Origin: Bacteroidota bacterium
Lineage (GTDB): Bacteria; Bacteroidota; Bacteroidia; Chitinophagales; CAIODY01
Length of the DNA: 36,146 bases
Assembly (NCBI GenBank): GCA_041192505.1
Contig: JBEEMV010000185.1
Location: forward strand, 1 to 36,146
Direction of reading: 5' to 3'
Shown: positions 11,647 through 26,531 of the stretch, one piece after another
How positions within the stretch are numbered: position 1 is the first letter of the stretch
Layout: the number at the start of each line of letters is the position of its first letter
Position numbers and translations under genes: made by a program
The notes under the pieces: model-generated
Databases searched by the model: none
The model's input: the letters and a program-made list of their open reading frames with translations, nothing else
What the model was told of the DNA's origin: nothing

Positions 11647-12243
11647 TTATTCCTTCACAAATTTCCCATTCATCACATTGCCGTTTGTATCAGTAGCTTT
11701 AATAAAATAAATACCACTTGGTAATGCTGAAACATCTATAGAGATGCTTCGTTCCTCAGCATGGCTAACTATCGAACTGCCGTCATGGTTAGCTTGTCGA
11801 ACCATTTGTGTTCTACCCAACACATCCGTGATTTGTATTGTATTATCTAATAACTGATAACCAGTAACTAATAACTTCTCTCCACATGGATTCGGATAAA
11901 TACTAAAATGATTATCGGTTGTTAAATTATTTTCAATGCCATTTAGCAATGGATTTTTTATATTGATAGTAAACCCTGCATTTTTAATAATATGCCCTTG
12001 ATAATCTTTACCGATAATGTGGCAGTAAGAACAAACATCGCCAAATTCTGTACTGATTTGCAAACACAAATTATAGGTTGTATCAACAGTATACATATGC
12101 GTTGGTGTGGCTGATGTTGAGGTAGAACCATCACCAAAATTCCATAAATAACTATTAGCCTGTTGTGAAGTAATAGAATCAATGGTTACTATAAATGTAT
12201 TATTTAAGGTATCATAATTAGTATTGAAATGGGCAATACAATT
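11647..12243. repeat. High-identity DNA repeat (copy 1) shared with 16099-16695: PKD and T9SS CTD coding region
   Basis: Colinear at an offset of 4452 bp; for example 11767-11827 is identical to 16219-16279. Confidence 0.9.
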
Positions 12244-15200
12244 TTGGTAATAGTAAAGACAATCTGATGTATCAATGCAATTGCCTTTTGTTACAATTAC
12301 TGCATAAATACCTGTAGTTGATGGAACGAAATTTTTGTTTGTAGCATTCGGAATTGGGGCATTCAAATTTATACAATCAATCCATTGATAGTTTGCTAAA
12401 GAACTTGTTTCATCAGATTCTAATGCTATTCCATTTTGAGTAATTCCATTATCAATACTATCTACATTTAAATATAGAATATTCAAAGAATCGCAACCAA
12501 ATTTAGATATAAATGAGTCGATATAAATACCACCCAAACTTAAATTCATATTCTTAAAGTAATAGCTTGAGCCTTTACAAATAGAAACATGTTGTGTATT
12601 GAAATAGGAGTTATTTACACTTAAGTTTAAGATTAAAATAGTATCACATGAATGAGGAGTTAGTATCGTATCATAGTACAATCCACTTGTAAATAAATTT
12701 TTGCCATTAAACTGGTAGAAAGAACCATTGCATATTGAAGCATTCATCAACTTTGTATTATAATTAAAATTCAAATTTAATTGTTCAATTGTATCACATC
12801 CTAAAGTGGTTTGAATGGTATCATAGTAGGTGCCATTTGTTGTTAGCATTTTACTATTAAAATTATAATTAATACCATGGCATGAATTGGCATTTATAAA
12901 TTTTATAGGAATGTTTTTTTTGTATACATTTAAAAAAATAATTGTATCGCAACTTGAAACACTATTTAAGGTATCAACATAAATTCCTGCAACTTTTATT
13001 GGTTTATTGTTGAATATTAAATTGTGAGAACTACAGATAGTATCATATTTATACAAATAGATGTATTGATCAACACTAAGCGCCAATTGGATAATTGTAT
13101 CACATGTATTAATACCATTTATCGTATCATAATAATAACCAGTTGTTGTTAAAATTTTACCACCAAAGTTGTATGATAATCCTTGACATATTGAGATATT
13201 CAAATTCTTACTTTCATAATACATATTTAAATTTATTGTTAAAATAGTATCACATCCATTTAATGCAATTATAGTATCAGTATAATTGCCAGGATTGCGG
13301 TATGTTTTATTATTGTAAATAAAAGATTGTCCATGACAAATGTTTTTTTGAATATTATCATAATTATATAATACATTTAAATTCAAGTATAAAATTGTAT
13401 CACAATTATTTGCAGATGAAATAGTGTGGCTGTAGGTTCCAGCATTTTTTAAATAAGTATTGTAAAATAAAAATGAATCTTTTGGACAAATAGTTTCAAA
13501 TTTGTTGATGTTAAAATTGAAATGTCTTAGTTTTAAATAAGTGATAGTGTCGCATCCAGAAGCATGCATTGTGGTATCATAAAAATCTCCACCGTTTAAA
13601 TATGTTTTACCATGGAAAATAAATGGAAAGCCACAAATATTTTTTATTAATGTATCATGATAAATAGTACTAATTTTAATAGGATGATTTATTGTAGAAA
13701 TGCAATTGTTTGATGAAATTGAAACTGTGTAAATTGTATTCACTGTTTGTGAAATTGAAACTGTATCATTATTCGAATTAAAACCAATTGGATTCGAACT
13801 CCAACTAATTGAATAATTTGAAGAGTTTATAGTTGAATTACATCCTTTAATAATTAAATCTGGTCTATTTAAAATGGTAGAGATATAACCATTTTTTGGA
13901 TAGCTATTATTAGAGGCATCTAGCAAGTTATTATCAGATTGCGAAAAATTGCAATACCCTTGACTTGGCATTGTAGTTTGTGCTACAAAATCCGAATTTG
14001 AAAAATTTATTGTTCCGTTATCGTAACAAATTTCAACCAATAAATTAGATAAGCCATCCCACTGAAATGCTTGATTTAGCATAAATGTATTATATCCAAT
14101 TGTAGAATTATAAGCTGCATTTGAATATACAATTGTTTTAGTACTTGTGGTATCAAATTTACCAAATGGTAAAGTGTTATAAAAAACAGCAGCTAACTTA
14201 ATGGTATAATTTTGATACGGTTTTATAGATGATTTATTAATTACACTCCAAGTTAGTTCAGAAATTATTCCACCATAAAACCCAGCTTGATTTAATTCGG
14301 CTTTTGTATAAATTAATTGAGTTCTTGATTCTGTATAAAGCCCATTAAAAATTGTTGGCGAATATCCTGCTGAAGTTTGAATATTGTTTCCTATCGCCAA
14401 AAAAGTGGATTGACTTGTGCAGTTATTTACTGTAGGTCCGCTATTTAAAGGTCGTGATAAGAGAATTAAGTTTGTGGAATTATTTGAACAAACAGAATCT
14501 ACTCCAACAAGCGTAATATTGGGAGCCATGCCTTTTACATAGATATTCTTGGAACCGAATGTAGGACAAAGTGTATCAAACATTGGAGGAGATGTAATTA
14601 GATTAACAATATGGTTTCCACCTTTAATAAATTTAACAATTATTGGATTGGAAGAAGTTAAACTGCCTGAAACCAAAATGGTTGATGAATCTATTTCCCA
14701 ATTATAACTTAGGGTTGAATTAATTGTGTTAAGATAAAATGTAACAGTATCAGACAATCCACATACTGAATCTTTTGATGCATAAATGGTAGTTGATTGT
14801 GCTTGATTCCGATTAATACTAATCAATTGCATCGTGGTATCATAAAGACAATTATTATAATTTGCAATTAGCTTTATCGTATATGTTCCAAGGGTACTAT
14901 AGTAATGTGTAGGGTTTTTAATGGTGTCAGTATTTGGATTATTTAAAGTTGAATTTGGATCACCAAAATCCCAAAACCAATGATTTATGTTTGCCCCTGG
15001 TAAATTTGAAAATGAATTATCTGAAAAATGAACTTTTGAATTTGTGCAATAAGTAGTAGGAGAAAAACAACCACTTTGAACTTGAGCATTTGATTGATAA
15101 GATGTTGTTAAAGTGTCGTTACATCCCCAATTATTTAATGGTTGAGTGATACAATTCACCTGTAAATTTCCACTAGGTGTGTTCGGAATTGTTAGGTTTT

Positions 15201-16038
15201 GGGAATTGCCAAGTATGTTTACATAGCCCGAATCATACCAATTATAAGAATAGAATCCTACCGGTGCTGAAAATATAGTTGGTCCATTTATTTGAGAGCA
15301 ATTGTAACTTTGTATTAATGTTCCGTTACAATTATTTGGAAAATCTAAATAGGCATATCCAAAGTGGCCACCATAAGCACAATCCCCTGATTCAAAATTT
15401 AAGTAAATTGTTTTACCTGCAAACCCTTTAATATTAATTTTTGAAGCCAGCCATGATGTACACATGGTTGATGAATTTCCAAAGAATGTACCTAATAGGA
15501 ATTGGGTAGAATTTATAGCTGATATTGAAAAATTTGAGCAAGAGGGAATAATACTATTTGTTATTGAATCTATTATTTTTACCCGAAAACTAGATTGTCC
15601 ATCTACAGTATGTGACCCATCTTGTAATACTAATGCGTAGTAAAAAATTAAATCATAATCATTGTTGTTGGCAGGAATTGTTAATTTGTATTTTAATTGA
15701 GCAGCAACCATAGATATGTTGTCATCACCTAATCTGATTGAACTTAGATTGTTCGGTATTAAAGGGCACACCATTGGTATTCCACTATATGGATCCAATC
15801 CTCCACTAACTAAATAGTGTTGTATGGGGGATATTCCTGTAGGAATTAATGGGAAATTTAATATAGTTGGATTACTCTGTACTGTTCCTTGAGAAACATT
15901 TCCTACATTACATTCCCAATTCGCTAAATTGCCGTTTTCAAATCCAATATTGGGTGGGCAATAGGTTTGCGCTTTTGCAGTAGTTAAAAATAATGGCAAT
16001 AAAGTGCATAGTAAAAATGATAAGGTTAGTTTTTTCAT
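11647..16038 (-). CDS. Large T9SS-secreted PKD-domain protein with 8 Cys-containing ~50-aa repeats (probable adhesin)
   Basis: Signal peptide; DC..GGHFGYAYLD N-terminal domain; PKD motifs WDFGDP and WNFGDG; 8 IC.G...YDT....GCDT repeats; CTD IYPNP...SGIYFIK...KFVKE. Confidence 0.88.
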   Translation of the reverse strand: MKKLTLSFLLCTLLPLFLTTAKAQTYCPPNIGFENGNLANWECNVGNVSQGTVQSNPTILNFPLIPTGISPIQHYLVSGGLDPYSGIPMVCPLIPNNLSSIRLGDDNISMVAAQLKYKLTIPANNNDYDLIFYYALVLQDGSHTVDGQSSFRVKIIDSITNSIIPSCSNFSISAINSTQFLLGTFFGNSSTMCTSWLASKINIKGFAGKTIYLNFESGDCAYGGHFGYAYLDFPNNCNGTLIQSYNCSQINGPTIFSAPVGFYSYNWYDSGYVNILGNSQNLTIPNTPSGNLQVNCITQPLNNWGCNDTLTTSYQSNAQVQSGCFSPTTYCTNSKVHFSDNSFSNLPGANINHWFWDFGDPNSTLNNPNTDTIKNPTHYYSTLGTYTIKLIANYNNCLYDTTMQLISINRNQAQSTTIYASKDSVCGLSDTVTFYLNTINSTLSYNWEIDSSTILVSGSLTSSNPIIVKFIKGGNHIVNLITSPPMFDTLCPTFGSKNIYVKGMAPNITLVGVDSVCSNNSTNLILLSRPLNSGPTVNNCTSQSTFLAIGNNIQTSAGYSPTIFNGLYTESRTQLIYTKAELNQAGFYGGIISELTWSVINKSSIKPYQNYTIKLAAVFYNTLPFGKFDTTSTKTIVYSNAAYNSTIGYNTFMLNQAFQWDGLSNLLVEICYDNGTINFSNSDFVAQTTMPSQGYCNFSQSDNNLLDASNNSYPKNGYISTILNRPDLIIKGCNSTINSSNYSISWSSNPIGFNSNNDTVSISQTVNTIYTVSISSNNCISTINHPIKISTIYHDTLIKNICGFPFIFHGKTYLNGGDFYDTTMHASGCDTITYLKLRHFNFNINKFETICPKDSFLFYNTYLKNAGTYSHTISSANNCDTILYLNLNVLYNYDNIQKNICHGQSFIYNNKTYRNPGNYTDTIIALNGCDTILTINLNMYYESKNLNISICQGLSYNFGGKILTTTGYYYDTINGINTCDTIIQLALSVDQYIYLYKYDTICSSHNLIFNNKPIKVAGIYVDTLNSVSSCDTIIFLNVYKKNIPIKFINANSCHGINYNFNSKMLTTNGTYYDTIQTTLGCDTIEQLNLNFNYNTKLMNASICNGSFYQFNGKNLFTSGLYYDTILTPHSCDTILILNLSVNNSYFNTQHVSICKGSSYYFKNMNLSLGGIYIDSFISKFGCDSLNILYLNVDSIDNGITQNGIALESDETSSLANYQWIDCINLNAPIPNATNKNFVPSTTGIYAVIVTKGNCIDTSDCLYYYQNCIAHFNTNYDTLNNTFIVTIDSITSQQANSYLWNFGDGSTSTSATPTHMYTVDTTYNLCLQISTEFGDVCSYCHIIGKDYQGHIIKNAGFTINIKNPLLNGIENNLTTDNHFSIYPNPCGEKLLVTGYQLLDNTIQITDVLGRTQMVRQANHDGSSIVSHAEERSISIDVSALPSGIYFIKATDTNGNVMNGKFVKE
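11741..11805. repeat. In-frame REP-doublet-like palindromic insert, copy 1
   Basis: CGTCATGGTTAGCTTGTCGAACCAT (11781-11805) is 24/25 identical to the GIY-YIG-flanking repeat. It faces a related arm GAGATGCTTCGTTCCTCAGCATGGC (11741-11765). Confidence 0.85.
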
Positions 16039-16098: not shown

Positions 16099-16695
16099 CT
16101 ATTCCTTCACAAATTTCCCATTCATCACATTCCCATTTACATCAGTAGCTTTTATAAAATAAATACCACTTGGTAATGCCGAAACATCAATAGAGATGCT
16201 TCCTTCCTCAGCATGACCAACTATCGAACTGCCGTCATGGTTAGCTTGTCGAACCATTTGTGTTCTACCCAACACATCCATAATTTGTATTGTATTATCT
16301 AATAACTGATAACCAGTAACTAATAACTTCTCTCCACATGGATTAGGATAAATACTAAAATGATTATCATCCATTAAACTATTGCCTATACCATTTAGTA
16401 ATGGATTTTTAATATTTATAGTAAAGCCTGCATTTTTAATAATATGCCCTTGATAATCTTTACCGATAATATGGCAATAGTTACAAGTATCGCCAATAGC
16501 AGTAACTATTTGTAGGCAAACATTATACGTTGTATCAACAGTATACACATGTGTTGGTGTGGCTGATGTTGAAGTAGAACCATCACCAAAATTCCATAAA
16601 TAGCTTGTGGCTTGTTGGGCTGTAATGGTATCAAGGGTTACTATAAATGTATTATTTAAAGTGTCGTAATTAACAGAGTAATTAGCTATGCAATT
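16099..16695. repeat. High-identity DNA repeat (copy 2)
   Basis: Colinear with 11647-12243. Confidence 0.9.
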
Positions 16696-19600
16696 TGTAT
16701 TAAAAACAAAACAAGCAGATGTATCAGAACACATTCCATCTGAAATTATAACGGCATACGAACCAGAATTGAATGGCGTAAAAAAGTTTTGATTAAATTG
16801 GGTTAGAATATTTGATGGAGTATTACAATCTATCCATTCATAATAAAAAATATTAGGCGATGTATTAACAGCATATAATGTATTGCCATTTTTTATAACA
16901 GTAGTTGGCGCAAAATACGGTGTAAGTATTAAAGTATCAATGGTTGTACAACTTCCAGTATGAATTGTATCAATATAAATACCTGGACTATTGTATACTT
17001 TATTTGAATAATAATATGGAGTTCCGTTACAAATTAAACCATTATGTGTTGAGGTAGTTGGTAAATAAATATAACTAAGTGATGCAATTGTATCACAGCC
17101 ATTGGTTGTAGATGGAATTGTATCGAAATAATAACCTGTTGTTGATATCCAATTGCCATAGAAAAAATATGGAGCACAATCAGTTACAGTTATATATTTT
17201 GAAAAATTAGTAAATAATAAATTTAAAATTAACATTGTATCACAACCAACACTTGTATGAATGGTATCATAATAAACCCCAGTTGCAGTATAAGTTTTAC
17301 CATTGAAGGTATAAACTGAACCCATACATAATGATTGATTTATTTGTACATTAAAAAGTGATGCAATTTTTACAACATGGTTTTTACTAAACATACATCC
17401 ATTATCATTAGCAGTAACTGTATAGGTAGTATTTGCTGATGGACTAACAACAATATTTTGATTTGTTGATGAAAATCCTGATGGATTTGATGACCAATTA
17501 AAAGTAGTATTAGTTGGAAATACATTCAAGTTACAACTTTTAAAAGTTATATCAGGTCTATCATTAGCATTAAAAGTAAATGTAGCAGGGTAAATAACAT
17601 TACCATCGTATAATACATCGCAGCCGTCTAAAGGGTCATTATCCGAAAAAGCATAAACACATTTAATATTCCCAACCCCCAAGTTTGATTTTTTAACATT
17701 ATCAGCTTGTGTGTAATTAGTTGTTCCGTTGTCAAAACAAACCTCTACTAACAAATTTGAAGTACCATCCCAAGAATAATTGGCAATATTGAATGGAAAA
17801 CTATTTACACCAACAATAGTACTATATGCATTATTTGAATAAACTATAGTTTTAGAAATTGAAGTATCAAATGTGGCTGGTAAATTAAAATCAGAATAAG
17901 AAATACAAGCCAATTTAATATTAAAATTTTGAAATGGAGCAGTGCTTCCTTTTGAAGTAATGTCAAATGCAATTTCCGAAATTTGACCGCCATAAAATCC
18001 AGCAGCATTTAATTCGGCAGCAGTATAAATCATCTGCATTTTTTGCTCGGTATAAAATCCATAAAATGGTGTAGGCAAACCAGCAGTTGTTGAACTATTT
18101 GTACCAATTGTTGAAATATTGGTTGAAGAATTACAGGGAACTATTGCAGCGCCACAATTATTAGCCGTATTATTAACAGAAAGCGTTGTTGTATTATTGG
18201 GGCAGATAGAATCAACGCCCATAATAGATATAAATGGAATAATTGCTTTCACATAAACCTGCGTTATAGCAGTAGTAGTGCAATTTGTATCTGTAGGTGG
18301 TGGTGTGGCAACAAACTGAATAGTATGATTGCCTGTTGTTTTATATTTTAATACAATAGGTTGATGAGCATTTAAATTGCCCGATACTACTATTGCATTT
18401 GGGTCTATTATCCATTGATAAGTATAGCCTACAATTGCTGAGCTTATAGGATATATAGTAGTGGTATCGCCTAATCCACAAATAGAATCTTTTGTAAATT
18501 TAATGATAGAAATAGGGGCAACTCTATTAATATTAATGGTTTGGCAAATGGTATCGGCTAAGCAATTAATATTGGAATGAGCAATTAAACAAACTGTATA
18601 ATTTCCCATTGCCGAATAAATATGAGTTGGATTTTCTGTGCTATCTGTATTCGGGTTATTTGATGTAGCATTAATATCACCAAAATTCCAAGCCCATTCA
18701 TTAATATATGCGCCTGTAATTGTTGTAAATGAGTTATCAATAAAATGAGTAGCGCTATTTACACAATAAGATGTTGGATAATTAAAATTGGCTACTGCCA
18801 CTGGATTTGGATTGTATTTAATAGCAACCGTATCCATGCATCCCCAATTATTTAATGGCGTAAGTACACAATAATGTAATGAAGTATCAATGGGCGAAGT
18901 GGGAATAAAAAATGTATCACTAGTACTCAATAAATTAGTAAAGCTAGAATCGTACCATTGATAAGCACTATAGCCACCAGGAGCAATTAATTGTGGTAAA
19001 TTAGCTGAGGAACAAGTTGAACCTTGAGTAAATGAATTACCATTACAATTATTTGGTAAATCAACATAAGCATACCCAAAATGACCAGCATAAGCACAAT
19101 CGAAAGCATCAAATTGTAGATAAATAGTTTTCCCTGCTAAGCCCGAAAAATCAAGTGTTGAGGCAGTCCAACCTTTATAATAAATGGAATCCCAAGAAGG
19201 CGAAATAGGTGAAACTAAAAATCCATTTAACATGCCGCTTACAGGTTGAACTATATAAAAATTAGAACATAGATTAACGGGTAAGTTAGTAGCAGAATCA
19301 ATAATAGTAACACTAAAGCCAGGCTGTGCTTCAAAAGGGTGTCTTGGTTGTTGAAATACTAAAGCGTAATAAAATGTTAGCGAAAAATTATTATTGTTTG
19401 TAGGCACATTTATTTTATAATTCATTCGAGCACAAATTGCACCTATTTGCTCATCACCTAATCTAACTGAAAAATGATTGCCATTTATGTAATTACAAAC
19501 TGTAGGAAATTGTCCGAAAGTGTCTAAACCACTTGTTTTAAGAACGTGTTGAGTTATACTTGGTCCTGTTGGATTGATAGGATAGGTAAGTGTAGCAGCA

Positions 19601-19764
19601 TTACCAGTTGTGCCTGATGTTACAGCGCCTACATTGCAAATCCAATTTGTAAAACCACCATTTTCGAAATTAATATTTGGTGGGCAATAGGTTTGCGCTT
19701 TTGTAGTAGTAAAAAATGATAGCCATAAAGTACATAGTAAAAATGATAAGGTTAGTTTTTTCAT
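16099..19764 (-). CDS. Large T9SS-secreted PKD-domain protein with 3 Cys-containing repeats, paralogue of 11647-16038
   Basis: Same architecture; near-identical signal peptide and C-terminal ~200 aa. Confidence 0.88.
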   Translation of the reverse strand: MKKLTLSFLLCTLWLSFFTTTKAQTYCPPNINFENGGFTNWICNVGAVTSGTTGNAATLTYPINPTGPSITQHVLKTSGLDTFGQFPTVCNYINGNHFSVRLGDEQIGAICARMNYKINVPTNNNNFSLTFYYALVFQQPRHPFEAQPGFSVTIIDSATNLPVNLCSNFYIVQPVSGMLNGFLVSPISPSWDSIYYKGWTASTLDFSGLAGKTIYLQFDAFDCAYAGHFGYAYVDLPNNCNGNSFTQGSTCSSANLPQLIAPGGYSAYQWYDSSFTNLLSTSDTFFIPTSPIDTSLHYCVLTPLNNWGCMDTVAIKYNPNPVAVANFNYPTSYCVNSATHFIDNSFTTITGAYINEWAWNFGDINATSNNPNTDSTENPTHIYSAMGNYTVCLIAHSNINCLADTICQTININRVAPISIIKFTKDSICGLGDTTTIYPISSAIVGYTYQWIIDPNAIVVSGNLNAHQPIVLKYKTTGNHTIQFVATPPPTDTNCTTTAITQVYVKAIIPFISIMGVDSICPNNTTTLSVNNTANNCGAAIVPCNSSTNISTIGTNSSTTAGLPTPFYGFYTEQKMQMIYTAAELNAAGFYGGQISEIAFDITSKGSTAPFQNFNIKLACISYSDFNLPATFDTSISKTIVYSNNAYSTIVGVNSFPFNIANYSWDGTSNLLVEVCFDNGTTNYTQADNVKKSNLGVGNIKCVYAFSDNDPLDGCDVLYDGNVIYPATFTFNANDRPDITFKSCNLNVFPTNTTFNWSSNPSGFSSTNQNIVVSPSANTTYTVTANDNGCMFSKNHVVKIASLFNVQINQSLCMGSVYTFNGKTYTATGVYYDTIHTSVGCDTMLILNLLFTNFSKYITVTDCAPYFFYGNWISTTGYYFDTIPSTTNGCDTIASLSYIYLPTTSTHNGLICNGTPYYYSNKVYNSPGIYIDTIHTGSCTTIDTLILTPYFAPTTVIKNGNTLYAVNTSPNIFYYEWIDCNTPSNILTQFNQNFFTPFNSGSYAVIISDGMCSDTSACFVFNTNCIANYSVNYDTLNNTFIVTLDTITAQQATSYLWNFGDGSTSTSATPTHVYTVDTTYNVCLQIVTAIGDTCNYCHIIGKDYQGHIIKNAGFTINIKNPLLNGIGNSLMDDNHFSIYPNPCGEKLLVTGYQLLDNTIQIMDVLGRTQMVRQANHDGSSIVGHAEEGSISIDVSALPSGIYFIKATDVNGNVMNGKFVKE
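16193..16257. repeat. In-frame REP-doublet-like palindromic insert, copy 2
   Basis: GAGATGCTTCCTTCCTCAGCATGAC (16193-16217), a 15-bp spacer, then CGTCATGGTTAGCTTGTCGAACCAT (16233-16257); the CATGAC/GTCATG ends are complementary. Confidence 0.85.
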
Positions 19765-23745: not shown

Positions 23746-23753
23746 TATCTTTG
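23746..23753 (+). promoter_or_regulatory. Bacteroidota -7 promoter element (TATCTTTG)
   Basis: Exact consensus followed by C, ending 33 nt before ATG 23787. Confidence 0.7.
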
Positions 23754-23786
23754 CTAAACTTACAAACACTACAAACCTATTTTACA

Positions 23787-24377
23787 ATGTCAGTATTTAA
23801 ATTCAGAGTAGCCTTAGAACAAGACGATACCATTTTCAGAGATATTGAAATTAAACCAGCGCAGTTGTTTTCAGATTTTCATACTGCTATTTTAAAATCA
23901 TTTGGTTTTGATTCAAAACACGAAGCTTCATTTTATAAAACAAATGATAGATGGATAATGGGCGAAGAAATAAGCCTAAACAAAAAAGATGGCATAAAGC
24001 AAATGTCGAAAATGGCAATGGCAATGGCTATTGACGACCCACATGAAAAATTTATTTATGTGTATGATGTTGAAATGGAATGGACATTTTTAATTGAATT
24101 GTTGGGCGTTGTAGAAGATTCGAAAAAAGATGAGTATCCACGAATTGCAAAAACTGAAGGTATTGCACCTAAGCAATATGGCAACGAACCAATTGTTGGA
24201 AAAGATATAGAAGGTTTTGAAGCCGAAGAAATTTATGATGCCAGCGAAACTGATGATATGGGCGAAGAAGGAGAAGACATTGAAAAAAATGATAACGACG
24301 AAGATGGAAGCGGTAACGATGAATTTGGTGAAGACGAATTTGGAACTGAAGAATCGGCAAGTGGCGAAGAATATTAA
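23787..24377 (+). CDS. Plasmid pRiA4b ORF-3-like family protein with acidic tail
   Basis: VFKFRV...IFRDIEI...FH.AI..SFGF...ASFY...KFIYVYD...WTFLIEL...YP; D/E-rich C-terminus; ATG 23787 follows the promoter. Confidence 0.75.
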   Translation: MSVFKFRVALEQDDTIFRDIEIKPAQLFSDFHTAILKSFGFDSKHEASFYKTNDRWIMGEEISLNKKDGIKQMSKMAMAMAIDDPHEKFIYVYDVEMEWTFLIELLGVVEDSKKDEYPRIAKTEGIAPKQYGNEPIVGKDIEGFEAEEIYDASETDDMGEEGEDIEKNDNDEDGSGNDEFGEDEFGTEESASGEEY

Positions 24378-24485: not shown

Positions 24486-25373
24486 ATGAAAGTATTAATC
24501 ATAGGCTTAGGCTCAATTGGAAAGAAACATATTGCTGCATTGCAGCAGATTAATTCTGCTGTTGAAATTTTTGCTTTGCGTTCTTCTAAAAAATTTGAAG
24601 AAGTGAAAGGTGTACATTCTATCACTTCAAAAAAACAAATTCCGAATCAGTTGGATTTCATCATTATCAGCAATCCAACAGCCGAACATTATTCTACTAT
24701 TAAAGAATTTTCAGAAAAAAACATTCCGCTGTTTATCGAAAAACCTTTGTTTCATCAATTAGAAGAAATTGATTTTAAAACGCCAATCACTTATGTAGCC
24801 TGCAATTTGCGGTTTCACCCCTGCATTATTTGGTTGAAAAAAAATATTGGCTTCCTCGAAAAAATAAATGAAGTGAGTGTGTACTGTGGCAGCTATTTAC
24901 CCGATTGGCGTAAGAATGTTGACTATAACAAAATTTATAGTGCTAATGCTGCAATGGGTGGTGGTGCTCATTTGGATTTGATTCACGAGTTGGATTATTG
25001 CTACTATTTATTTGGCAAACCAATATCATCGCATAAATTATTGAAGCATAAATCATCATTAAAAATTAATGCTGTTGATTATGCAAACTATCAACTCGAC
25101 TATGAAAATTTTGCGGTAAATGTTACGTTAAATTATTTTCGCCGAGATGTAAAACGACAAATTGAATTAGTTTGTAAAAATGAAACTTATACCATTGATT
25201 TGGTGAGTAATGAAATTATAAAAATGGATGAGGTGATTGAAAAGTACCATACAGAGCCACTTTATACTTACATTGAACAACTGAAATATTTTATGGATTG
25301 TTTGCAACATCACAAAAAACCGATGAATGATTTGCAAGAAGCAAATGAAGTTTTGAAAATTTGTTTAGAGTAA
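24486..25373 (+). CDS. Gfo/Idh/MocA family oxidoreductase (type seen in nonulosonic acid clusters)
   Basis: IIGLGSIGKKH Rossmann motif, FIEKP, NLRFHP, GSYLPDWR, GGGAHLDLIHELDY. Confidence 0.9.
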   Translation: MKVLIIGLGSIGKKHIAALQQINSAVEIFALRSSKKFEEVKGVHSITSKKQIPNQLDFIIISNPTAEHYSTIKEFSEKNIPLFIEKPLFHQLEEIDFKTPITYVACNLRFHPCIIWLKKNIGFLEKINEVSVYCGSYLPDWRKNVDYNKIYSANAAMGGGAHLDLIHELDYCYYLFGKPISSHKLLKHKSSLKINAVDYANYQLDYENFAVNVTLNYFRRDVKRQIELVCKNETYTIDLVSNEIIKMDEVIEKYHTEPLYTYIEQLKYFMDCLQHHKKPMNDLQEANEVLKICLE

Positions 25374-25417
25374 AAGTTTCCCACAGATTATTTGTAAATA
25401 AATCTTCAAAATTAACC

Positions 25418-25758
25418 CGTCATGGTGAGCTTGTCGAACCATATTCAGAAATGAAAAACATGTACGTTTACATATTGCTTTGTTCCGATAACTCTTATTA
25501 CACAGGAGTTACAAACGATGTTGAGGGAAGATTTAAGGAACATCAAGATGGCTTTGTTAATGAATGTTATACTTATGCACGAAGACCTTTGCAATTAAAA
25601 TTCTATGAATTATTCAATACACCGCAAGAAGCCATTAAATTTGAAAAGCAAATAAAGAAATGGAGTAGAGCAAAGAAAGAAGCATTGATTGAAAGAAATT
25701 GGGAAAAACTCAAATTATTGTCAAAATCAAAAAATGGTTCGACAAGCTCACCATGACG
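25418..25758. mobile_element. GIY-YIG cassette bounded by a perfect 25-bp inverted repeat
   Basis: Left CGTCATGGTGAGCTTGTCGAACCAT (25418-25442) and right ATGGTTCGACAAGCTCACCATGACG (25734-25758) are exact reverse complements. Confidence 0.75.
25451..25756 (+). CDS. Small GIY-YIG nuclease family protein (UPF0213/YhbQ-like)
   Basis: YVYILLCSDNSYYTGVTND...R..EH..G....YT..RRP......E.....AIKFEKQIKKWSRAKKEALI. ATG 25451 is chosen because the upstream ORF extension is translated repeat (RHGELVEP). Confidence 0.93.
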   Translation: MKNMYVYILLCSDNSYYTGVTNDVEGRFKEHQDGFVNECYTYARRPLQLKFYELFNTPQEAIKFEKQIKKWSRAKKEALIERNWEKLKLLSKSKNGSTSSP

Positions 25759-25799
25759 AGGTAATTTATAGAGTTTAGATTAAAATCAAAAAAAAAATT

Positions 25800-26531
25800 A
25801 TGACACAAAAAATAATCGTCATCACTGGCGCAAAAGGATTGTTGGGTAGTGAATTTGTAAATCACTGCCGCAGCAAAGGTTTTAGAGTGATTGAAGCCGA
25901 TGTAAAAACAGAAACTGATTTGGCTAACGACCAATATCAATTAGATATTACAAATGAAGAATCGGTTGAAACCTGCATCAAATCTATTGTTGCGATGCAT
26001 GGCAAAATTGATGGTTGGGTAAATAATGCTTATCCACGAACGGCAGATTGGGGAATGCCCGATGAAGATTTACCTTTTGAAAGCTGGCGAAAAAATGTAG
26101 ATATGCATTTAAACGGTTACTATTTATGCTGCAACAAAATCATTAAACAAATGAAGCAACAAGGCTTTGGCAGCATTGTGAATTTGGCTTCTATCTATGG
26201 TGTGCAAGCGCCTGATTTTTCAATTTATGAAGGCACACAAATGGGCAATGCCATAATTTATTCAGCCATAAAAGGTGGTATCGTTAATCTTACAAGATAC
26301 TTAGCTTCGGCAAATGGGCAATTTGGAATTAGAGTAAACACGGTTTCACCAGGTGGAATTTTTGATAATCAAAATGAAAATTTTGTAAAAAATTACAACA
26401 AAAAAGTACCGCTTAAAAGAATGGGTTTACCAAAAGATATTGCACCCTCAATTGCTTTTTTATTGAGTGATGATGCAGCTTATATCACTGGTCATAATTT
26501 AATGGTAGATGGTGGTTGGACGATAGTGTGA
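25800..26531 (+). CDS. SDR family oxidoreductase, PtmA (flagellin modification protein A)-like
   Basis: ITGAKGLLG, VNNAYPR..DWG, ASIYGV.APDFSIY, YSAIK, VSPGGI.D.Q, ITGHNLMVDGGW. Confidence 0.9.
   Translation: MTQKIIVITGAKGLLGSEFVNHCRSKGFRVIEADVKTETDLANDQYQLDITNEESVETCIKSIVAMHGKIDGWVNNAYPRTADWGMPDEDLPFESWRKNVDMHLNGYYLCCNKIIKQMKQQGFGSIVNLASIYGVQAPDFSIYEGTQMGNAIIYSAIKGGIVNLTRYLASANGQFGIRVNTVSPGGIFDNQNENFVKNYNKKVPLKRMGLPKDIAPSIAFLLSDDAAYITGHNLMVDGGWTIV

What the first reader, a model, noticed from the sequence alone, without database searches (positions are those of the whole stretch)
25418..25758. Stand-alone GIY-YIG nuclease enclosed by a perfect 25-bp inverted repeat that also occurs elsewhere: candidate REP-associated nuclease element
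Seen: a 101-aa GIY-YIG ORF sits between exact inverted copies of CGTCATGGTGAGCTTGTCGAACCAT, with 7 of the next 9 outer bases also matching. The right copy supplies the last codons and the stop (NGSTSSP-TGA). The cassette splits an otherwise coherent Gfo-SDR gene pair, and nuclease-free copies of the repeat occur at 11781 and 16233. Known: RAYT (TnpA-REP) HUH nucleases are flanked by inverted REPs and are thought to spread them. Inference: this is an analogous architecture using a GIY-YIG enzyme with no transposase, i.e. a minimal selfish cassette with dispersed non-autonomous repeats.
Basis: partly seen in the sequence, partly recalled or inferred. Interest (0 to 1): 0.85.

Follow-up and report, generated by a model that had tools for sequence, protein, structure and literature searches.

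The report
GIY-YIG nuclease flanked by hairpin repeats
A small DNA-cutting enzyme gene sits between two mirror-image copies of a short hairpin repeat that is scattered through the genome, which matches the "Ssn nuclease plus its target repeats" arrangement described in 2025, so it is real but a further example, not a new kind of element.

Summary
A 101-aa GIY-YIG ORF (25451-25756) lies between exact inverted 25-mers (25418-25442, 25734-25758), and the genome carries 36 copies at 5 mismatches or fewer.

The link between gene and repeat is not chance:
- In 80 related loci from other species, the repeat motif is about 40-fold denser within 250 bp of the gene than beyond 1.5 kb.
- 42 of 71 loci have an exact flanking inverted repeat of 12 nt or more, against 1 of 63 displaced controls.
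- Repeat class tracks the protein tree.

This architecture is already published. Chenal et al. 2025 (PMC11893778) describe single-domain GIY-YIG "Ssn" nucleases that cut single-stranded DNA next to flanking hairpin repeats, and they compare it with RAYT/REP. The repeats fit the CGTC-tagged REPs of Di Nocera 2013.

What I did not find in the main texts I read:
- This mainly Bacteroidota clade uses a repeat class (T/CGTC tag, 5-bp covarying stem, conserved GAGC-N-GTCGAA core) that the published search motif misses (0 of 80 loci).
- Copies lie in frame inside T9SS tail domains and an HsdR gene.
- Two sister species keep the repeats without the small nuclease gene.
- One contig suggests the cassette inverts.

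Mobilisation by the nuclease remains untested.

The parts
25418..25442 (+). Left hairpin repeat (SRM-like, CGTC-tagged REP unit). It reads CGTC tag, ATGGT stem, GAGCTTGTCGA core, ACCAT stem, and ends 8 nt before the start codon.
   Evidence: Stem covariation across 200 instances is.
25451..25756 (+). 101-aa single-domain GIY-YIG nuclease gene. The last 7 codons and the TGA stop lie inside the right repeat.
   Evidence: Pfam PF01541 at E 4.7e-19. PDB UPF0213 proteins 1zg2 and 1ywl match at E 5e-23 and 3e-19. Y7, Y17, R27, H31 and E65 are invariant in 7 relatives.
25734..25758 (-). Right hairpin repeat, the exact reverse complement of the left one, with its tag facing outward.
25409..25767 (.). 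The whole cassette including the imperfect outer extension of the inverted repeat (32 of 34). It is absent between the same two genes in sister species, and G004 keeps only the first 12 nt of the left repeat.
11781..11805 (+). Repeat copy without a nuclease gene (1 mismatch). It is read in frame on the minus strand as MVRQANHDG inside the T9SS C-terminal sorting domain of ORF 11647-16038. By eye, a degenerate second unit lies on the other strand about 20 nt upstream.
16233..16257 (+). The same as the previous part, in the paralogous ORF 16099-19764 on the minus strand.

Best explanation
This is an Ssn-type system. It consists of a small single-domain GIY-YIG nuclease gene bracketed by two inverted copies of its own cognate hairpin repeat. 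That repeat is one member of a family of about 33-36 copies of a CGTC-tagged REP in this genome.

**Inferred mechanism, by analogy with the tested SsnA enzymes.** The protein binds the repeat only when it is single-stranded, recognising the folded hairpin plus the 5' tag. It then cuts that strand a few nucleotides 5' of the tag. In this cassette both tags face outward. The predicted cuts would therefore fall just outside the cassette, one on each strand.

**Behaviour of the pair.** The nuclease-repeat pair is inherited as a unit, is passed between lineages, and is sometimes lost. The repeats persist on their own as singles, head-to-head doublets and in-frame inserts in tolerant protein loops.

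**Shown here:** the anatomy, the gene-repeat association, the co-variation of repeat class with protein clade, and the presence/absence polymorphism.

**Inferred:** the enzymatic activity, the strand and site of cutting, and any role in ssDNA control or in repeat spread.
For: **Protein**
- It hits the GIY-YIG domain and PDB UPF0213 folds.
- Catalytic-type residues are invariant.
- At 101 aa it compares with the 94-aa SsnA.

**Association in relatives' genomes** (core 13-mer, 1 mismatch or fewer)
- G025: 6 of 9 genome copies lie within 1.4 kb of the gene.
- G013: 7 of 30.
- G006: 2 of 6.
- G032: 6 of 67.

**Association in 80 loci from other species**
- Motif density is 4.45 and 3.9 per kb in the 250 bp upstream and downstream, against about 0.1 per kb beyond 1.5 kb. 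61 of 80 loci have a motif within 300 bp.
- The nearest upstream copy is '+' and the nearest downstream copy is '-', as in the window, in 31 of 80 loci. That is 31 of the 43 loci with copies on both sides.
- A motif-free test finds an exact flanking inverted repeat of 12 nt or more in 42 of 71 loci, against 1 of 63 displaced controls.

**Hairpin**
- 161 of 200 instances pair at 4 or more of 5 stem positions, against 57 of 200 when the arms are dealt out at random.
- There are 16 different fully paired stems.

**Repeat class follows the protein tree**
- 16 changes against a shuffled mean of 33.8 (minimum 28).
- Within Flavobacteriaceae, 3 changes against 11.7 (minimum 8).

**Published biochemistry and the same architecture**: PMC11893778.
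Against: - **Published motif.** The SRM search motif matches none of the 36 repeats. It gives 1 hit in the genome against 1-6 in shuffles and is within 300 bp of the gene in 0 of 80 loci. My implementation matched 24 of 24 expansions of the NTS consensus.
- **Binding base.** The cytosine after the palindrome that is critical for Neisseria SsnA binding is not conserved here. A, T or C follows ACCAT.
- **Weak fold.** The single unit folds weakly, at -2.1 kcal/mol with z -0.36.
- **Family not tested.** Membership of CDD cd10448 could not be tested. The protein is about as similar to B. subtilis YazA (47%) as to alphaproteobacterial homologues (47-51%).
- **Repeats without the gene.** G005 and G001 keep 35 and 13 core copies, and their only GIY-YIG match is a roughly 600-aa frame.
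- **No recent movement seen.** G006 has the cassette at the same site.
- **No experiment** exists for this clade.
Confidence: 0.8

Rival explanations
1. The cassette is an autonomous mobile element, IS-like or homing-like. The nuclease nicks at repeats, and host repair or recombination then copies the cassette or solo repeats into new sites, including existing repeat doublets. This reading can coexist with the best explanation.
For: - **Patchy in the genus.** The cassette is in 2 of 7 genomes, with a 12-nt footprint in G004.
- **Cross-phylum similarity.** Relatives in Nitrospirota, Nitrospinota, Spirochaetales and Ignavibacteriales are 54-64% identical, as close as Bacteroidota relatives at 52-67%.
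- **Graded series in orthologous HsdR genes.** G028 has no insert, G025 has repeat-GIY-YIG-repeat in frame, and G020 has another repeat type at the same three sites.
- **Inversion.** One contig shows the interior inverted between the repeats.
- **Decay.** One related locus is a pseudogene (L008, 3 stops), and 5 of 80 loci have in-frame stops.
Against: - There is one copy per genome here, at the same site in G006.
- No target-site duplication or clean empty site could be defined. Intergenic DNA is too diverged.
- GIY-YIG enzymes hydrolyse and do not join strands (recalled).
- The repeats are just as numerous in a sister species without the gene.
Confidence: 0.25
2. The repeats are REPs of another system, or have no dedicated enzyme, and landed around an unrelated housekeeping GIY-YIG gene by chance.
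For: In this genome 34 of 36 copies are not next to the gene. Other small GIY-YIG paralogues (C49, C114) have no such repeats and sit beside tRNA-like sequence.
Against: The roughly 40-fold flank enrichment and the conserved orientation across 80 species argue against chance. So does 6 of 9 genome copies lying around the gene in G025, and repeat class tracking the protein clade.
Confidence: 0.03
3. The inverted repeats act mainly at RNA or regulatory level, as terminator or stabiliser hairpins or as a long-range stem closing the mRNA. Alternatively they act as the arms of an invertible switch, and the nuclease is a passenger.
For: - The left copy ends 8 nt before the start codon and the right copy holds the stop.
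- Doublets fold strongly, at -26.3 kcal/mol with z -12.
- One 373-nt contig from run X2, with 0 mismatches, shows the interior inverted.
Against: - Tested SsnA enzymes do not bind RNA or dsDNA.
- The same repeats occur inside coding regions and far from any gene end.
- The inversion rests on a single contig. It could be a chimera generated at the inverted repeat.
Confidence: 0.07

Closest known systems
Ssn nucleases with NTS/SRM repeats (Chenal et al. 2025, Nat Commun, PMC11893778)
   Same: - A single-domain GIY-YIG protein of about 94-101 aa.
- A gene bracketed by inverted hairpin repeats carrying a 5' CGTCAT-type tag.
- The same repeat dispersed in tens to hundreds of copies.
- Enzyme and repeat that vary together.
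- The authors already draw the analogy to RAYT/REP.
   Different: - The published SRM motif does not match this repeat class.
- The stem here is 5 bp and variable, around a conserved GAGC-N(2-4)-GTCGAA core, where NTS has an 8-9-bp conserved stem and a short loop.
- There is no conserved C after the palindrome.
- 11 of 36 copies lie in long open frames, against 2% of NTS inside genes.
- The main text never mentions Bacteroidota. Its supplements were not visible.
- cd10448 membership was not tested here.
CGTC-tagged REPs (Di Nocera et al. 2013, PMC3733652)
   Same: - A CGTC or TGTC tag.
- A stem that starts with AT.
- Read as 8 pairs with two G/A mismatches and a 5-nt loop, the unit fits their description of 8-9-bp stems and 4-5-nt loops.
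- Head-to-head dimers and intragenic in-frame units.
- Bacteroidetes are listed among the hosts.
   Different: They found no associated enzyme and wrote that these repeats 'apparently lack a dedicated transposase'. The usual CCA tail is not seen here. I could not see their Figure 2, so the family (1-4) cannot be assigned.
RAYT (TnpA-REP) with REP/REPIN elements
   Same: There is one nuclease gene per genome, flanked by inverted copies of a hairpin repeat that is dispersed in many copies. Inheritance is vertical with occasional loss. Recognition is of a single-stranded hairpin.
   Different: The enzyme is unrelated (HUH Y1 transposase against GIY-YIG). RAYTs form covalent intermediates and can rejoin DNA, whereas GIY-YIG enzymes hydrolyse (recalled). 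REPs carry a GTAG tag.
Rickettsia palindromic elements (RPE)
   Same: These are short palindromic repeats inserted in frame in protein-coding genes. Di Nocera classes RPE-4 and RPE-6 as CGTC repeats.
   Different: The host phylum and the sequence differ. No nuclease link is stated in the passages I read.
UPF0213 / YazA / YhbQ small GIY-YIG proteins (Slx1 relatives)
   Same: They give the best solved-structure matches (1zg2, 1ywl). Identity to YazA is 47%. They are grouped with Slx1 in PMC7017083.
   Different: In the four such loci I looked at (Cupriavidus x2, Legionella, S. paeninsulae) no flanking repeats were found. These proteins lack the GWSRAKKEALI-type motif of the window's clade.

Membership tests
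GIY-YIG nuclease superfamily | GIY-YIG catalytic domain with conserved Tyr, Tyr, Arg, His and Glu | tested here: met
   PF01541 at E 4.7e-19, 68.9 bits against a cut-off of 22.6. Y7, Y17, R27, H31 and E65 are invariant in 7 relatives. Assigning these residues catalytic roles rests on recalled I-TevI numbering.
Ssn family (Chenal 2025) | Single-domain protein of about 94 aa with no extra DNA-binding domain | tested here: met
   The protein is 101 aa. The only Pfam hit covers residues 4-76, and there is no NCBIfam hit.
Ssn family (Chenal 2025) | Belongs to CDD cd10448, or is a homologue of N. meningitidis SsnA at E < 1e-10 | not testable with these tools
   No CDD library and no SsnA sequence were available. 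Indirect evidence only: alphaproteobacterial homologues at 47-51% identity are flanked by the same repeat class.
Ssn family (Chenal 2025) | Gene flanked on both sides by hairpin repeats that also occur dispersed in the genome | tested here: met
Ssn family (Chenal 2025) | Flanking repeats fit the published SRM degenerate motif | tested here: not met
   0 of 36 repeats fit, with 1 genome hit against 1-6 in shuffles. 0 of 80 related loci have a match within 300 bp. The positive control gave 24 of 24. The motif is a search string, not a definition.
Ssn family (Chenal 2025) | Site-specific cutting of ssDNA next to the repeat, with no action on dsDNA or RNA | not testable with these tools
   This needs biochemistry.
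CGTC-tagged REPs (Di Nocera 2013) | Terminal CGTC (or TGTC) tag next to a palindrome whose first two pairs are A-T | tested here: met
   The window repeat reads CGTC then AT...AT. In 200 instances from 80 loci the tag is TGTC in 157 and CGTC in 5.
CGTC-tagged REPs (Di Nocera 2013) | Stem of 8-9 bp, loop of 4-5 nt, 3-nt tail (mostly CCA) | tested here: inconclusive
   There are 5 Watson-Crick pairs, then G/A and A/G, then G-C, then a 5-nt loop, if read that way. ViennaRNA predicts only the 5-bp stem. No CCA tail is present.
RAYT/REP | HUH Y1 transposase gene and GTAG-tagged REPs | tested here: not met
   The enzyme is GIY-YIG and the tag is CGTC. The arrangement resembles RAYT/REP but is not a member of that family.

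The most novel reading that the evidence does not exclude
The T/CGTC-stem-GAGC-N-GTCGAA repeats may form a second class of Ssn targets. In this class the conserved interior, not the stem, would be read by the enzyme. The class would be spread over Bacteroidota, Nitrospirota, Nitrospinota and Alphaproteobacteria. Its cassettes would still be mobile: they would enter coding regions in frame, with or without the nuclease gene (T9SS tails, HsdR), and flip between their arms. On this reading a GIY-YIG enzyme is the long-missing mobilising or maintaining enzyme of CGTC REPs and of RPE-like in-frame elements.
Probability: 0.2. Interest if true: 0.7.

Novelty: new member of a known kind. Interest (0 to 1): 0.35.

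Why it matters
The finding extends a nuclease-repeat system that has been characterised by experiment, and so far mainly in Pseudomonadati, to a large and mostly Bacteroidota clade. That clade's repeats escape the published search motif. Surveys built on that motif may therefore undercount Ssn-repeat pairs.

The clade offers new ssDNA recognition sequences for the tool development the authors propose. The in-frame copies in secretion-tail and restriction-enzyme genes give natural material for two questions: how such repeats enter genes, and whether the nuclease is involved. The sister species with and without the gene help with the same questions.

Tried and rejected
- **Rfam.** A search of 25300-25900 at E up to 10 gave only chance-level hits.
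- **Literature.** Searches for GIY-YIG with REP, MITE or palindromic terms found no paper linking them other than PMC11893778. Follow-up searches found no later work. One search was wasted on a badly chosen term.
- **Empty sites.**
  - G001, G005 and G003 have a different intergenic sequence at the Gfo-SDR site, so exact insertion boundaries cannot be read.
  - Orthologous-site comparisons for three solo doublets gave non-collinear matches. The one site I aligned (C67) was too diverged in its intergenic DNA.
- **Canonical Ssn bridge.** I looked for plasmid homologues flanked by published-type SRMs. None was found in the 7 loci fetched.
- **ESM Atlas.** It returned only generic GIY-YIG/COG2827 clusters.
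- **RNA run X24.** Only short pieces from relatives were laid, so nothing can be said about expression.
- **Parts without contig cover** are not evidence of anything.
- **Complex prediction, structure prediction and fold search** were not used. Pfam and PDB sequence matches already settled the fold.

Full report
**1. The observation**

The 25-mer CGTCATGGTGAGCTTGTCGAACCAT is at 25418-25442 on the + strand. Its exact reverse complement is at 25734-25758. Two further copies with one mismatch are at 11781 and 16233. That makes 4 matches in the window against 0 in 100 shuffles.

Seven of the next nine outer bases also pair (read). Between the arms lies an ORF, 25451-25756, of 101 aa. It matches Pfam GIY-YIG at E 4.7e-19. 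Its last codons and the TGA stop are inside the right arm.

The neighbours are a GFO_IDH_MocA oxidoreductase gene and an SDR gene. One correction applies: the copies at 11781 and 16233 are not intergenic (section 7).

**2. The repeat family in this genome**

The window is contig C185 of a 2.9-Mb assembly with 298 contigs, 87% complete. The assembly holds 36 copies of the 25-mer at 5 mismatches or fewer, 20 at 2 or fewer, and 6 exact.

The copies occur in several forms:
- Singles.
- Abutting head-to-head doublets, with the tags together in the middle (C67, C120, C207).
- Tandem pairs (C17, C64).
- Pairs in which one partner is a variant (C22, C217).

Each unit reads as a CGTC or TGTC tag, then a 5-nt stem arm, then a GAGCTTGTCGA core, then the complementary arm. 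Variants such as ATGGT/ACCAT, ATCCT/AGGAT and ATAGT/ACTAT keep the pairing.

On its own the unit folds weakly, at -2.1 kcal/mol with z -0.36. A doublet folds strongly, at -26.3 kcal/mol with z -12. The case for the hairpin therefore rests on covariation, not on energy.

**3. Is the repeat tied to the gene?**

In this genome only one GIY-YIG gene of this clade exists, so 34 of the 36 copies are not next to it. The test had to come from other genomes.

*Relatives of the same order.* The protein is patchy: 15 of 41 genomes match at E 1e-5 or better, G000 included. Where close homologues exist, copies of the core 13-mer (1 mismatch or fewer) crowd around them:

| Genome | Copies near the gene | Copies in the genome |
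|---|---|---|
| G025 | 6 (within 1.4 kb) | 9 |
| G013 | 7 | 30 |
| G006 | 2 | 6 |
| G032 | 6 | 67 |
| G014 | 0 | 30 |

G014's locus is flanked by a sister class of repeat, GAGCGGAGTCGAA.

*Wider sample.* I fetched the 80 best of 584 confirmed relatives from one genome per species. The peptide patterns used to find them lie in the enzyme core, not in the repeat-coded tail. The results were:
- A loose motif, GAG[CT]N2-5[CT]CGAA, has 4.45 and 3.9 hits per kb in the 250 bp upstream and downstream of the gene. Beyond 1.5 kb it has about 0.1 per kb. 61 of 80 loci have a hit within 300 bp.
- The window's arrangement, nearest upstream copy '+' and nearest downstream copy '-', occurs in 31 of 80 loci. 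That is 31 of the 43 loci with copies on both sides.
- A test that uses no motif finds an exact inverted repeat of 12 nt or more flanking the gene in 42 of 71 testable loci. The same test on windows displaced by 1.5 kb finds 1 of 63.
- Loci without the main motif mostly carry another flanking repeat type, TTCTCGATACA.

The association is real and general.

**4. Hairpin and co-variation**

Among 200 motif instances within 400 bp of the 80 genes:
- 161 pair at 4 or 5 of the 5 stem positions. When the 3' arms are dealt out among instances, 57 do.
- There are 16 different fully paired stems.
- The 4 nt before the stem are TGTC in 157 instances and CGTC in 5.

On a quick maximum-likelihood tree of 82 proteins, repeat class changes 16 times. 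I dropped 5 of the 80 loci for in-frame stops and added the window plus 6 relatives. Only 92 columns were available and many forks are unresolved. With shuffled labels the mean is 33.8 changes and the minimum 28.

Within Flavobacteriaceae alone (26 loci, 4 classes) the class changes 3 times, against a shuffled mean of 11.7 and a minimum of 8. Related sequences share labels, so this supports enzyme-repeat pairing but does not prove co-evolution.

**5. Presence and absence**

| Genome | State at the Gfo-SDR site |
|---|---|
| G000 (window) | Cassette present |
| G006 | Cassette at the same site; protein 82% identical; arms 24-25 of 25 identical |
| G004 | Only the first 12 nt of the left arm, joined to the right flank |
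| G001, G005, G003 | The two genes are 72-87 bp apart with an unrelated spacer |

So the cassette is not fixed. However, clean insertion boundaries cannot be read from these sites.

Relatives in Nitrospirota, Nitrospinota, Spirochaetales and Ignavibacteriales are 54-64% identical to the query. That is as close as Bacteroidota relatives at 52-67% and suggests transfer between phyla.

One result goes against dependence on the enzyme. Copies of the core 13-mer (1 mismatch or fewer) across the genus:

| Genome | G000 | G005 | G001 | G002 | G004 | G003 | G006 |
|---|---|---|---|---|---|---|---|
| Copies | 33 | 35 | 13 | 12 | 11 | 8 | 6 |

In G005 (96% complete) and G001 (99% complete) the only Pfam GIY-YIG match is a roughly 600-aa frame. 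That is UvrC-sized, and I did not check it further.

**6. What is known**

Di Nocera et al. 2013 (PMC3733652; I read passages) defined CGTC-tagged REPs.
- The stems start with AT and are 8-9 bp. The loops are 4-5 nt.
- Head-to-head dimers predominate, and intragenic units exist.
- The hosts include Bacteroidetes.
- They concluded that these repeats 'apparently lack a dedicated transposase'.

Chenal et al. 2025 (PMC11893778) is the closest match. I read the abstract, part 1 of 4 of the Results, sections 10, 12 and 17, and passages.
- NTS/SRM hairpin repeats (NTS = CGTCATTCCCGCGMAVGCGGGAATCYRG) flank the genes of a family of single-domain GIY-YIG proteins, CDD cd10448, named Ssn.
- 71% of homologue loci have at least one repeat, and 42% have them on both sides.
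- Four purified enzymes bind the repeat only as ssDNA and cut a few nucleotides upstream. They do not act on dsDNA or RNA.
- Their Discussion already compares NTS-ssnA-NTS with insertion sequences and with RAYT/REP.

**7. How this case differs from what I could read**

- **The published motif misses this class.**
  - My implementation matches 24 of 24 expansions of the NTS consensus.
  - It hits the genome once, against 1-6 hits in shuffles, and hits none of the 36 repeats.
  - It hits within 300 bp of the gene in 0 of 80 loci.
- **Different conserved parts.** The conserved part here is the interior core and the stem varies. The cytosine after the palindrome, critical in Neisseria, is not conserved.
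- **Bacteroidota not mentioned.** The main text never mentions Bacteroidota or Flavobacteria. The supplements were closed and may do so.
- **The same class flanks an alphaproteobacterial homologue.** A Sphingomonas homologue at 51% identity has it on both sides.
- **Many copies are intragenic.**
  - 11 of 36 copies lie in long open frames or in frames running off contig ends. In N. meningitidis 2% of NTS are inside genes.
  - The two window copies sit in Por_Secre_tail domains at E 2.6e-12 and 8.5e-12.
  - Compared with a tail domain that lacks them, they add about ten residues around MVRQANHDG.

**8. Mechanism**

I commit to the Ssn reading. The protein binds its repeat in single-stranded form and cuts just 5' of the tag. 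Because both tags face outward, the predicted cuts bracket the cassette, one on each strand. This step is inferred.

What the system does for the cell is open. It may control incoming or replicating ssDNA, as shown for transformation in Neisseria, or it may maintain or spread the repeats. A direct RAYT-like cut-and-join is unlikely. GIY-YIG enzymes hydrolyse without a covalent intermediate (recalled), so any spread would need host repair or recombination.

**9. Verdict**

The feature is real, and the association is strongly supported. The kind is already known, so this is a new member, with a repeat class that the published motif misses. Interest is moderate.

Noticed in passing
L142/L006 (G025:C4:344477-347245), L143 (G020), L144 (G028): Three orthologous EcoEI-type HsdR genes, 80-89% identical, differ at the same three loop sites.
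- G028 has no inserts (800-aa open frame).
- G025 has repeat doublets in frame at two sites, and repeat-GIY-YIG-repeat in frame within the ResIII domain at the third (966-aa open frame).
- G020 has other hairpin-like repeat peptides (NGKLTLDNENV, STVNYQL) at all three sites (893-aa open frame).
   Followed up: partly
window 25418-25813, run X2: One 373-nt contig (depth 8.3, 0 mismatches) joins the reverse complement of 25418-25735 to 25759-25813. That places the cassette interior inverted between its two arms. A 200-nt contig from another sample (X3) shows the reference orientation at the left junction. This is either an inversion polymorphism or a chimera formed at the inverted repeat.
   Followed up: no
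G000 contigs C197, C229, C234, C285, C127 and window 11781, 16233: At least seven T9SS-tail-like coding regions share the same embedded repeat (MVRQAHHDG or MVRQANHDG) with conserved flanks. This suggests one insertion that then spread with the tail domain by duplication or recombination.
   Followed up: partly
G000:C49:509-742 and G000:C114:16723-16860: The other small GIY-YIG paralogues of this genome lack the repeat. They sit next to tRNA-like sequence and duplicated terminator-like hairpins, so they look like a different, tRNA-linked subfamily.
   Followed up: no
G000 C17, C64, C72, C81, C120, C133, C207, C222, C255: Many repeat copies are followed by a shared stretch of about 30 nt (attcaactttccatcgcttaatctg-like). 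The repeat may therefore be part of a larger composite element in these places.
   Followed up: no
window 23751-24377: An ORF with a PRiA4_ORF3 domain (E 9.3e-17) and an acidic tail lies just upstream of the Gfo gene.
   Followed up: no
L049, L061, L074, L075, L078, L080, L106 and L031: Eight of the 80 related loci have the gene within about 300 bp of a contig end. This is consistent with assemblies breaking at the flanking repeats. It means such genes may be under-recovered in draft genomes, which also bears on the apparent absence in G005 and G001.
   Followed up: no
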